Below, one piece after another: positions 4,677-5,614 of a DNA stretch of 6,520 bases. Every line of letters begins with the position of its first letter. Within the stretch, counting starts at the first letter, position 1. Source of the stretch: Vibrio cholerae ATCC 14035 (GTDB taxonomy: Bacteria > Pseudomonadota > Gammaproteobacteria > Enterobacterales > Vibrionaceae); contig NZ_JHXR01000048.1 in assembly GCF_000621645.1 (NCBI RefSeq), forward strand, positions 1-6,520, read 5' to 3'. Position numbers and translations under genes: made by a program. Below the pieces are notes generated by a model that was given only the letters and a program-made list of their open reading frames with translations, was not told the DNA's origin and did no database searches.

Positions 4677-4800
4677 TAACGCCCGCCTAAGGGGCTGACA
4701 ACGCATTACCACTAAACTCAAACACAATAACTGTAACCACCGCGGCTCATTGGGACTGGAAACGCCACGCGTTGACAGTCCCTCTTGAGGCGTTTGTTAT
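4677..4800 (-). repeat. attC recombination site (VCR-G), attC of cassette 7
   Basis: A consensus VCR. On the minus strand the R' core is GTTAGTT. Confidence 0.95.
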
Positions 4801-4806
4801 ATGAAT

Positions 4807-5475
4807 TTAATCTTTCGTCACGTTAACTTCTCGCAACCAAAACTTAGGGTTATGCGAGCCATCATGAGTTTTGCCTTTTGAGATCATTATTCGGCACAGT
4901 GCTAACGCAGTAATAGGAATTAACACATGAAAAACAAACCCAACTGAACAATTTTCTTTGTATGTCGATAGTGAAAAGATCACTAACACACACCAGATAA
5001 ACAACGTAAAGACAGCAACCCATTGGTTAATTTTAGAAACAGAGTATCGTTGAGGGCCTGTTATATATTTTTTACAGAACTCACTTTCAGGCGGTCGTTC
5101 CAAAAAGGATTTGTATAATGGCCCTGTAACGCTATCTTCTAGAAGATCTAGATGATTTTCCCAGTTTTCCTGCCAATACTTGCTACCTTTATTCGCAGAA
5201 AACCAAGCGAAAGTAAAAACAAAACCAGTTGAAGCAATTATTGTTAGGAACAGCGACTGACCACCACCTTTAAAATCTCCTGAAGCTACGGCAAAGAAGC
5301 CGGCAAAGGCAACCGCTATCAATGCCCAAAAATACGTCGCTCTTTTCCAGTAAAGCTCGATTTCAAACTTTCGTATATCTGAAGCTTGAGCAAATGCCGA
5401 CTGTAATAAAATAGAGTGCGATTTATCTGTCTCAAATTTCTTTATGTATTCTTCTTTATCGTACTGTTTACTCAT
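4807..5475 (-). CDS. Orphan 222-aa integral membrane protein with two TM hairpins (4 TM); function unknown (cassette 7)
   Basis: I place the start at Met26 of the track ORF (ATG 5475..5473), which is preceded by TAGGAAA (AATAGGAAACATATG). The earlier ATG at 5490 sits in the attC R' box (GTTATATG), and the one at 5550 lies inside VCR-H. The TM segments are [55 protein letters not shown] and [21 protein letters not shown]. A Trp/acidic-rich loop, [16 protein letters not shown], follows the first hairpin. Confidence 0.75.
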   Translation of the reverse strand: [222 protein letters not shown]

Positions 5476-5491
5476 ATGTTTCCTATTCATA

Positions 5492-5614
5492 TAACGCCCG
5501 CCTAAGGGGCTGACAACGCATACCACTAAACTCAAACACAACAACTGCAACCACCGCGGCTCATTGGGACTGGAAACGCCGCGCGTTGACAGTCCCTCTT
5601 GAGGCGCTTGTTAG
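5492..5614 (-). repeat. attC recombination site (VCR-H), attC of cassette 8
   Basis: A consensus VCR with a 1-nt deletion (gcataccac) and an R''-proximal substitution (GAGGCGCTTGTTAG instead of GAGGCGTTTGTTA). Confidence 0.93.

What the first reader, a model, noticed from the sequence alone, without database searches (positions are those of the whole stretch)
4680..5494. Orphan single-gene cassette encoding a 4-TM protein with effector-like architecture: candidate undescribed defence or abortive-infection module
Cassette 7 (815 bp) carries one ORF and nothing else.
- **Protein layout:** a ~45-aa charged N-terminal helix ([39 protein letters not shown]) runs straight into a tight TM hairpin. 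Next come a ~55-aa Trp- and acid-rich soluble segment ([39 protein letters not shown]), a second TM hairpin, and a basic tail.
- **What is absent:** I see no catalytic, transporter or signal-peptide motif.
- **Interpretation:** an N-terminal amphipathic helix followed by a 2-TM hairpin is the organisation of membrane-disrupting effectors in conflict systems (SLATT-like or similar). I cannot establish homology by eye.
- **Context:** sedentary chromosomal integron cassettes have been reported to be enriched for very compact anti-phage genes. That makes a stand-alone membrane effector here plausible.
Basis: partly seen in the sequence, partly recalled or inferred. Interest (0 to 1): 0.8.

Follow-up and report, generated by a model that had tools for sequence, protein, structure and literature searches.

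The report
Integron cassette encoding RipA-family membrane protein
This Vibrio cholerae integron cassette encodes a small four-helix inner-membrane protein from a catalogued family (RipA/8xMP) whose function is still unexplained; the family rides on prophages, transposons and defence islands, which makes it a reasonable but unproven phage-exclusion candidate.

Summary
Window 4680-5494 is one 815-bp integron cassette bounded by VCR/attC sites. It carries a single minus-strand ORF (5475->4807, 222 aa) with four TM helices and two cytoplasmic segments.

It is not "undescribed". The protein is identical to V. cholerae N16961 Q9KM98, which I infer to be VCA0483. It is a textbook member of Pfam PF24838 "8xMP" (137 bits against a cut-off of 30). 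NCBI names this family "RipA family octameric membrane protein".

SLATT membership fails: 13.5 bits against a cut-off of 41, and no signalling partner. PADLOC, PHROGs, PDB sequence searches and Foldseek (model pLDDT 92.6) give nothing.

The family is large (2185 clusters at 50% identity), stand-alone, and consistently mobile-element cargo:
- integron cassettes in three genera;
- a Tn7-like element;
- the V-S moron slot of P2-like prophages, which holds Pycsar in a related prophage;
- lambdoid prophages next to Drt2;
- E. coli defence islands next to Kiwa and Zorya.

Against it, VCA0483 is not among the 16 active cassettes in the published N16961 cassette screen. Francisella RipA, which I presume to be the name-giving protein, is linked to envelope and lipid A biology.

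Verdict: partly supported. This is a known family with an open function.

The parts
4680..5494 (-). Complete integron cassette (815 bp): 19-nt leader, one ORF, then its attC
   Evidence: attC copies; R' boxes read; homology to the Shewanella and Marinomonas copies starts 1-5 bases inside this boundary
4807..5475 (-). CDS, 222 aa plus stop; identical to V. cholerae N16961 Q9KM98 (inferred VCA0483); member of the RipA/8xMP family
   Evidence: the VCA number is inferred from gene order and published locus names
5481..5484 (-). Shine-Dalgarno-like AGGA, 5 nt upstream of ATG 5475
   Evidence: read from the sequence
4969..5397 (-). Region matching Pfam PF24838 (residues 27-169): N-terminal juxtamembrane helix, TM1, TM2, cytoplasmic segment, TM3
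   Evidence: 137 bits, profile positions 3-135 of 136
5341..5412 (-). Conserved cytoplasmic helix (residues 22-45, motif [13 protein letters not shown]), continuous with TM1
   Evidence: conservation; model
5284..5340 (-). TM1 (residues 46-64)
   Evidence: model
5200..5256 (-). TM2 (residues 74-92)
   Evidence: model
5026..5193 (-). Conserved cytoplasmic segment (residues 95-150; near-invariant [15 protein letters not shown]..GPLYK and SVSKINQ)
   Evidence: the helix 72-116 extends TM2 into the cytoplasm
4963..5019 (-). TM3 (residues 153-171)
   Evidence: model
4882..4938 (-). TM4 (residues 180-198); poorly conserved and outside the Pfam core
4680..4803 (-). attC (VCR) of this cassette; R'' ATAAC starts 6 nt after the stop codon, R' GTTAG ends at 4680
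   Evidence: as single-stranded DNA it folds better than shuffled controls (z = -3.3)
5495..5623 (-). attC of the preceding (inverted TacA/GNAT) cassette, which forms the upstream boundary

Best explanation
What is shown:
- The cassette encodes a typical member of the RipA/8xMP family (Pfam PF24838).
- It is a small inner-membrane protein with four TM helices, with the N-terminus, central segment and C-terminus in the cytoplasm and only 8-10-residue periplasmic loops.
- The strongly conserved parts are two membrane-proximal cytoplasmic segments: residues 27-45, and residues 95-122 plus 145-151.
- The gene is a self-contained single-gene module. It travels as cargo on integron cassettes, a Tn7-like transposon, moron slots of P2-like and lambdoid prophages, and integrative defence islands.
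- In this array it has no promoter-like site of its own.

What is inferred:
- It assembles into a ring-shaped homo-oligomer (an octamer according to the family label). The long TM1 and TM2 helices would extend into a conserved cytoplasmic collar.
- It acts alone at the inner membrane to protect the carrying cell or element against incoming phages.
- The most likely mode is a conditionally opened pore that collapses membrane integrity (abortive infection). Blocking genome entry is less likely, because the periplasmic loops are tiny and unconserved.
- The trigger would be read at the cytoplasmic face.
For: Family membership:
- Pfam PF24838 at 137 bits against a cut-off of 30.
- 150 of 150 diverse representatives match the same model.
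- NCBI and UniRef name the family 'RipA family octameric membrane protein'.

Topology and conservation.

Stand-alone:
- No conserved neighbour family in 80 genomes.
- The extensions found in some longer homologues share no similarity with each other.

Mobile cargo:
- Cassettes in V. cholerae, V. tubiashii and Xanthomonas, and Shewanella and Marinomonas.
- A V. cholerae paralogue lies next to tnsABCDE at two different chromosomal sites.
- It sits in the V-S slot of P2-like prophages, on the opposite strand to the tail genes, in Yersinia, E. coli and four further loci.
- In an Enterobacter prophage the same V-S slot holds Pycsar. The V-S slot is one of three recognised P2 moron regions (PMC6823313).
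- It lies at the end of a P2-related Vibrio prophage and beside a filamentous prophage and an Mrr-type gene in Proteus.

E. coli:
- All 7 inspected loci are in mobile elements.
- 4 of the 7 lie directly beside annotated defence genes: Kiwa kwaAB, with Zorya II nearby in one locus, and Drt2.

Wider sample: 38 loci were found in IMG/VR viral contigs.
Against: - No experiment shows defence.
- The published screen cloned 88 function-unknown, non-TA, non-duplicate N16961 cassettes and tested them against 5 vibriophages and 23 coliphages. Its 16 active cassettes are VCA0308 to VCA0458. VCA0483 is not among them, although it meets the inclusion criteria.
- PADLOC has no model for it.
- No hit in 50,697 sequenced phage genomes.
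- Cytoplasmic motifs are unusually well conserved across phyla (40-55% identity from Cyanobacteria to Acidobacteriota). That is not what a direct phage sensor usually shows.
- Many homologues in environmental genomes sit beside housekeeping genes (thiC, pdxA, dnaN, argS, cytochrome bd).
- Francisella RipA, presumed to be the protein that gives the family its name, is a core gene tied to LpxA, lipid A and envelope integrity (PMC4322802, PMC4688374).
- The oligomeric state and any pore could not be modelled here.
Confidence: 0.5

Rival explanations
1. RipA-like envelope factor. The oligomer binds or regulates a conserved cytoplasmic enzyme of envelope precursor synthesis, as Francisella RipA does with LpxA and GlmU-linked lipid A synthesis. 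It would tune membrane or LPS homeostasis, possibly as a lysogenic-conversion trait that alters the cell surface, rather than killing or excluding by a pore.
For: - The family name, and the description of RipA as a homo-oligomeric inner-membrane protein with two essential cytoplasmic domains. This matches the two conserved cytoplasmic segments found here.
- Near-invariant polar cytoplasmic motifs across phyla fit a conserved host partner.
- Many homologues sit beside housekeeping genes.
- The cassette is absent from the 16 active cassettes of the phage screen.
Against: - The sequence link between this protein and Francisella RipA was not tested here. It rests on a database name.
- The gene is accessory and mobile, not core, in Vibrio and Enterobacteria.
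- Prophage moron slots and Kiwa, Zorya and Drt2 neighbours are hard to explain by housekeeping.
- RipA's own biochemical role is unsettled (PMC12444477).
Confidence: 0.2
2. Some other benefit to the mobile element or host that is unrelated to phages and lipid A. Examples are an ion or solute channel for stress tolerance, an immunity-like membrane protein against a toxin, or a mild addiction or toxicity function that stabilises the array.
For: - Cargo slots also carry non-defence morons (Rousset et al.).
- Weak recurrent matches to Imm17 (27 of 150) and other 2-TM families.
- The array around the cassette is rich in TA modules.
Against: - All of these matches are far below family thresholds and lie on hydrophobic hairpins.
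- No partner toxin or antitoxin is conserved.
- No transporter signature.
Confidence: 0.2
3. A SLATT-family effector: a 2-TM pore that is opened by a nucleotide second messenger made by a partner enzyme located elsewhere.
For: - NCBIfam SLATT_1 aligns to the TM hairpin (residues 44-107) at E=0.051.
- 12 of 150 relatives give sub-threshold SLATT_1 hits, best 0.0012.
- One UniRef entry of the family carries a SLATT name.
Against: - 13.5 bits against a cut-off of 41.
- No Pfam SLATT family appears among the 25 most frequently matched families in the 150 relatives. The member that UniRef labels as SLATT (P0072) hits only 8xMP.
- No SMODS, SLOG, TIR or RT partner is conserved next to the gene.
- The conserved core has three TM helices plus a large cytoplasmic segment.
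Confidence: 0.05

Closest known systems
Pfam PF24838 '8xMP' / NCBI 'RipA family octameric membrane protein' (presumed name-giving protein: Francisella tularensis RipA, FTT0181c/FTL1914)
   Same: - The HMM match is far above threshold.
- It is an inner-membrane protein with two cytoplasmic regions that carry the conservation, matching the published description of RipA as homo-oligomeric with two essential cytoplasmic domains.
   Different: - RipA is a conserved chromosomal gene of Francisella needed for intracellular growth and linked to LpxA and GlmU.
- This copy is a promoterless, mobile cassette, and its relatives are prophage, transposon or island cargo.
SLATT-domain membrane effectors of CBASS-, RT- and SLOG-linked conflict systems
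   Same: Small alpha-helical membrane proteins with a cytoplasmic N-terminal helix and a tight TM hairpin. They are thought to permeabilise the membrane.
   Different: - This protein fails the SLATT family thresholds.
- It has a 3-TM conserved core plus a fourth helix.
- It has no partner signalling enzyme.
Membrane effectors and exclusion proteins in prophage moron slots and cassettes (lambda RexB and the SCI cassette system Sucellos SclB; PycTM of Pycsar; P2 Tin, Old and Fun(Z); the SCI cassette Brigantia)
   Same: - They share the same kinds of genomic slots. The P2 V-S slot holds either this gene or Pycsar.
- They are compact and membrane-embedded, and sit in SCI cassettes.
   Different: - RexB, SclB and PycTM need a sensor partner, whereas this gene is solitary.
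- No sequence or fold similarity was detected.
- Unlike those systems, it has no demonstrated anti-phage activity.

Membership tests
Pfam PF24838 8xMP / RipA family | Score above the curated gathering threshold of the family HMM over most of the profile | tested here: met
   137 bits against a cut-off of 30, E=4.8e-40, profile positions 3-135 of 136. 150 of 150 diverse relatives also match.
Pfam PF24838 8xMP / RipA family | Inner-membrane protein whose conserved parts are two cytoplasmic regions flanking a TM hairpin, followed by a further TM helix | tested here: met
   TM segments, positive-inside charge distribution and per-column conservation; model with pLDDT 92.6.
Pfam PF24838 8xMP / RipA family | Homo-octameric assembly | not testable with these tools
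   Only single chains can be modelled. No solved relative was found in the PDB by sequence or by fold.
Pfam PF24838 8xMP / RipA family | Detectable sequence relationship to Francisella RipA itself | not tested
The link rests on NCBI and UniRef names.
SLATT domain | Match to a SLATT HMM above threshold | tested here: not met
   NCBIfam SLATT_1 gives 13.5 bits against a cut-off of 41. No Pfam SLATT hit for the query. Only 12 of 150 relatives give sub-threshold hits.
SLATT domain | Genomic association with SMODS, SLOG, TIR or RT signalling partners | tested here: not met
   None of these families appears among the most frequent matches listed for the 131 immediate neighbours. Neighbour families are all different.
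Integron gene cassette | A single promoterless ORF followed by an attC site, bounded by G|TT recombination points | tested here: met
Known anti-phage defence systems (PADLOC-DB v2) | Match to any model of a known or candidate defence protein | tested here: not met
   Best hit is CorA-like at E=0.18.
Candidate defence gene by genomic association | Recurrent location in defence islands or prophage or satellite hotspots next to validated systems | tested here: met
   P2 V-S slot shared with Pycsar. Adjacent to Kiwa, with Zorya II nearby in one locus, or to Drt2 in 4 of 7 inspected E. coli loci. About 8% of immediate neighbours in 80 diverse genomes are defence-like. No formal background comparison was made.
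Anti-phage defence (functional) | Reduces phage plating or triggers abortive infection when expressed | not testable with these tools
   The published N16961 cassette screen lists 16 active cassettes without VCA0483. Whether it was among the 88 cloned cassettes is inferred from the inclusion criteria, not seen in a table.

The most novel reading that the evidence does not exclude
The RipA/8xMP family could be an unrecognised, very widespread single-gene membrane system of phage exclusion or abortive infection. It has a fold with no solved relative. It would form an octameric pore gated from the cytoplasmic side, and it is spread by integrons, Tn7-like elements and prophage moron slots. On this reading the Francisella virulence factor RipA would be a domesticated member, which would link an old puzzle in tularaemia biology to phage-conflict machinery.
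Probability: 0.35. Interest if true: 0.7.

Novelty: new member of a known kind. Interest (0 to 1): 0.5.

Why it matters
The family has about 2,200 clusters at 50% identity across many phyla. It has no solved structure and no agreed function. It also repeatedly occupies the same genomic slots as validated anti-phage systems.

If it proves to be a solitary membrane defence or exclusion protein, three things would follow. It would add a compact, broadly distributed system. It would give a function to one of the silent V. cholerae superintegron cassettes. It would also offer a new angle on Francisella RipA.

If instead it regulates envelope synthesis, it would be an example of mobile elements carrying envelope-remodelling cargo. 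Either outcome can be tested with simple expression and plating experiments.

Tried and rejected
- PADLOC, PHROGs and NCBIfam scans of the protein gave nothing usable. The only hits were SLATT_1 and CorA-like, both below threshold.
- PDB sequence searches with the single sequence, a 35-sequence profile and a 150-sequence profile gave only chance hits: gp41 on the WQENWE motif, and CSC1/TMEM63 on a TM helix.
- A search for a conserved partner gene in 80 genomes found none. The upstream gene is on the same strand in 63 of 74 loci, but it belongs to a different family in nearly every locus and is often housekeeping. I rejected a two-gene operon model.
- A search for informative domain fusions in longer homologues failed. 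The 21 extensions share no similarity and have no Pfam domains, so they are probably gene-calling artefacts.
- Literature searches for '8xMP', 'octameric membrane protein', 'RipA family' and 'RipA + anti-phage' returned only RIPA buffer and unrelated RipA proteins. No paper describing the family was found in the library.
- The supplement of the SCI screen, as stored, did not contain the cassette list.
- Weak hits to Imm17, LptF/G and DUF4131 in relatives were treated as hydrophobic-hairpin noise.
- The P2-like phage R18C carries a 741-bp ORF of unknown function in the V-S slot. No sequenced phage in the collection matches this family, so that ORF is not a relative.
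Full report
**What is in the window.** The 6.5-kb window is a stretch of a Vibrio cholerae-type superintegron. Eight copies of the VCR/attC repeat divide it into cassettes. The copies at 4674-4809 and 5488-5623 flank the reported region. On the minus strand the R' boxes read G|TTAGTT (G4680|T4679) and G|TTATAT (G5495|T5494).

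It contains one real ORF, on the minus strand. The start is ATG 5475, preceded by AGGA five nucleotides upstream. The stop is at 4809-4807, giving 222 aa. The attC begins six nucleotides after the stop. No promoter-like site lies upstream of the ORF and no Rfam family matches the window. The neighbouring upstream cassette is an inverted TacA/GNAT toxin-antitoxin pair transcribed away from this gene. The gene therefore depends on read-through from farther up the array.

**The protein.** Hydropathy gives four TM segments: 46-64, 74-92, 153-171 and 180-198. Lys+Arg counts are 9 in the N-terminus, 1 in loop 1, 8 in the central segment, 1 in loop 3 and 5 in the tail. This indicates that the N-terminus, central segment and tail are cytoplasmic, and that the two periplasmic loops are only 8-10 residues long.

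An AlphaFold2 model built on 150 diverse relatives is confident (pLDDT 92.6, pTM 0.83). It has helices at 22-65 and 72-116, which are TM1 and TM2 extended far into the cytoplasm. Further helices lie at 133-139, 146-170 and 177-200. A first model from 35 close relatives was weaker (pLDDT 74.8).

Conservation across 150 representatives is concentrated in the juxtamembrane N-helix ([13 protein letters not shown], then YFW), the end of TM2, the motif [15 protein letters not shown]..GPLYK, and SVSKINQ just before TM3. TM4 and the tail vary.

**Identity.** The protein is identical to UniProt Q9KM98 of V. cholerae. It is found in more than 2,000 assembly blocks, always in the same array context. The gene order runs as follows:
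- Phd/ParE
- GNAT
- inverted GNAT/TacA
- this gene
- a 95-aa gene
- MazG
- TacA/GNAT
- Phd/ParE
- an esterase

Published locus names give VCA0477 as the Phd antitoxin, VCA0485 as MazG, VCA0486 and VCA0488 as antitoxins, and VCA0489 as ParE. Combining these places the gene at VCA0483. This is an inference from gene order, not something read from an annotation.

**Family.** Pfam assigns residues 27-169 to PF24838, "Octameric membrane protein family (8xMP)", at 137 bits against a cut-off of 30.
- 3,309 homologues were retrieved.
- The 50%-identity library holds 2,185 clusters at E<=1e-3.
- All 150 representatives tested hit the same model.
- NCBI and UniRef call these proteins "RipA family octameric membrane protein", including partial V. 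cholerae entries and the E. coli genes annotated by PGAP.

The protein is therefore not undescribed at family level. The only membrane protein named RipA that I know of is Francisella tularensis RipA. It is described as a homo-oligomeric inner-membrane protein with two essential cytoplasmic domains. Loss of RipA is suppressed by lpxA and glmU mutations (PMC4322802; PMC4688374; PMC12444477). This architecture fits what I see here. However, I could not obtain the RipA sequence, so the link is by name only.

No paper describing 8xMP was found. No solved structure is related by sequence or by fold (viral structures). "Octameric" could not be tested.

**SLATT and known defence models.**
- NCBIfam SLATT_1 aligns to the TM hairpin at 13.5 bits against a cut-off of 41.
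- 12 of 150 relatives give similar sub-threshold hits.
- No Pfam SLATT family appears among the 25 most frequently matched families in the 150 relatives. The one member that UniRef labels as SLATT hits only 8xMP.
- PADLOC and PHROGs return nothing.

I therefore do not file it as SLATT. A remote relationship of the hairpin remains possible but untested.

**Genomic behaviour of the family.** In 80 loci from species-representative genomes there is no conserved neighbour. The largest neighbour family is a tyrosine integrase, present in 7 loci. Immediate neighbours range from housekeeping genes (ThiC, Thi4, PdxA, DnaN, ArgRS, cytochrome bd, GlmS) to defence-type genes. The defence-type neighbours include OLD/Gabija-like ATPases, Abi-alpha, AbiTii, GmrSD and DNA methyltransferases, roughly 8% of 131 neighbours. 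Extensions found in longer homologues share nothing with each other. The gene is a solitary unit.

Annotated contexts are more telling.

(i) Integron cassettes. It is a cassette in V. cholerae, V. tubiashii and Xanthomonas. The Shewanella algae and Marinomonas copies are 84-85% identical in DNA. Their homology starts 1-5 bases inside the cassette boundary and runs into an attC.

(ii) Tn7-like element. A 52%-identical V. cholerae paralogue lies next to tnsABCDE at two different chromosomal sites. One of these is downstream of glmS, so the gene is part of a Tn7-like element. The same module is present in V. viridaestus and V. ruber.

(iii) P2-like prophages.
- The gene sits, on the opposite strand to the tail genes, between baseplate gene V and tail-completion gene S in Yersinia enterocolitica, Y. 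alsatica and E. coli strain 10.
- It does the same in three further prophages.
- This V-S ("orf30") position is one of the three recognised moron regions of P2-like phages (PMC6823313).
- In an Enterobacter prophage the V-S slot holds the Pycsar system, while the 8xMP gene lies after ogr at the prophage end.

(iv) Other prophage settings. The 73%-identical V. fluvialis copy lies just beyond the integrase of a P2-related prophage. The 71%-identical Aeromonas copy lies between ogr/delta and gpA, with swapped neighbours. The Proteus copy lies between a filamentous prophage and an Mrr-type island.

(v) E. coli complete genomes. A DNA search found 14 of 5,426 genomes with a match. All seven loci I inspected are in mobile elements:
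- the P2 V-S slot;
- three mobilisable islands, where the gene lies between a variable RM-type methyltransferase module and Kiwa kwaAB, with Zorya II nearby in one of them;
- a Qin-like prophage next to Drt2;
- a lambdoid tail cluster, between K and I;
- an integrase island next to mutS.

(vi) Viral and plasmid collections. 38 loci occur in IMG/VR viral contigs. None occurs in 50,697 sequenced phage genomes. Only 10 occur in 72,556 plasmids, one of them beside pifC, a P-loop NTPase and a RelA/SpoT gene.

**Interpretation.** Shown here: family membership, topology, cassette anatomy, solitary organisation, and a consistent association with mobile elements and with slots that elsewhere hold validated anti-phage systems.

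Inferred: the protein forms a ring oligomer whose conserved cytoplasmic collar controls a membrane activity that benefits the carrier against incoming phages. I favour a conditionally opened pore (abortive infection) over a block to DNA entry. The periplasmic loops are tiny and unconserved, whereas everything that is conserved faces the cytoplasm.

I give this reading about 0.5. The main counter-evidence is experimental. The systematic screen of the N16961 array cloned all cassettes that were of unknown function, non-TA and non-duplicate (88 cassettes). It tested them against 5 vibriophages and 23 coliphages. The 16 actives listed are VCA0308 through VCA0458, and VCA0483 is not among them (10.1101/2024.07.02.601686). 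A later library selection with ICP2 and T4 recovered other N16961 cassettes, and the text I could read does not mention this one. Narrow phage panels make such negatives weak, as the P2/P4 hotspot study notes for its own small phage panel. They still count.

The very high conservation of polar cytoplasmic motifs across phyla, and the RipA-LpxA story, keep an envelope-regulation reading alive at about 0.2.

**Comparison and novelty.** The gene works like, and shares genomic slots with, compact membrane effectors and prophage exclusion genes. As a family member it belongs to RipA/8xMP, not SLATT. The object itself is a catalogued protein of a catalogued family. What is open is the function of the whole family. 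I rate it a new member of a known kind, with moderate interest.

Noticed in passing
window 4368-4655 (minus strand): The next cassette encodes a 95-aa protein (inferred VCA0484). It matches Pfam PF20712 CyanoTRADDas_TM, a 2-TM domain of TRADD-N-associated conflict systems, above threshold (30.9 bits against 24.3, profile 35-68 of 68). It is a second small membrane protein of conflict-system type, right beside the target.
   Followed up: partly
window 3856-4227 (minus strand): A MazG-type nucleotide pyrophosphohydrolase cassette (PF03819, 70.9 bits; VCA0485 in published lists)..
   Followed up: no
window 2085-3636 (minus strand) and 5706-6472 (plus strand): Three toxin-antitoxin cassettes surround the target. 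They are Phd/ParE (2085-2632), TacA/GNAT (2834-3636), and a second TacA/GNAT pair (5706-6472) inverted relative to the cassette direction.
   Followed up: partly
window 484-861 (minus strand): A small cassette ORF has two Cys pairs (MSTRFCEKCGK...CAICGS). It looks like a zinc ribbon, but no Pfam family is above threshold.
   Followed up: partly
L133-L135 (V. cholerae), L014, L016: A 52%-identical paralogue plus two small ORFs (77 and 98 aa) lie between the insertion site and tnsA of a Tn7-like element. This is an unusual position for cargo, on the tnsA side of the element. The module was seen at glmS and at a second site.
   Followed up: partly
L145, L147, L148 (E. coli islands): The homologue always starts 49-50 nt after a variable RM-type module (HsdM plus a 370-aa protein, or an Eco57I-like fusion) and is followed by Kiwa. 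The upstream module is swapped while the spacer and the 8xMP gene are kept. A functional link to the methyltransferase module was not examined.
   Followed up: no
L136 2873-4796 and L137 8790-11834: The P2 V-S moron slot carries Pycsar in an Enterobacter prophage. In Yersinia it carries a YaaC-domain protein plus two unknown proteins next to the 8xMP gene. The slot looks like an unexplored hotspot.
   Followed up: partly
L042, L068, L069 (Acidobacteriota): The homologue's start overlaps the thiC stop by one base in three genomes. This suggests stable co-transcription with a housekeeping gene in that lineage.
   Followed up: no
L146 5175-5978 and 7920-8597 (E. coli lambdoid prophage): There are two morons inside the tail operon. 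One is a DUF6694 lipoprotein after the tape-measure gene. The other is the 8xMP gene, between K and I, on the same strand as the tail genes.
   Followed up: no
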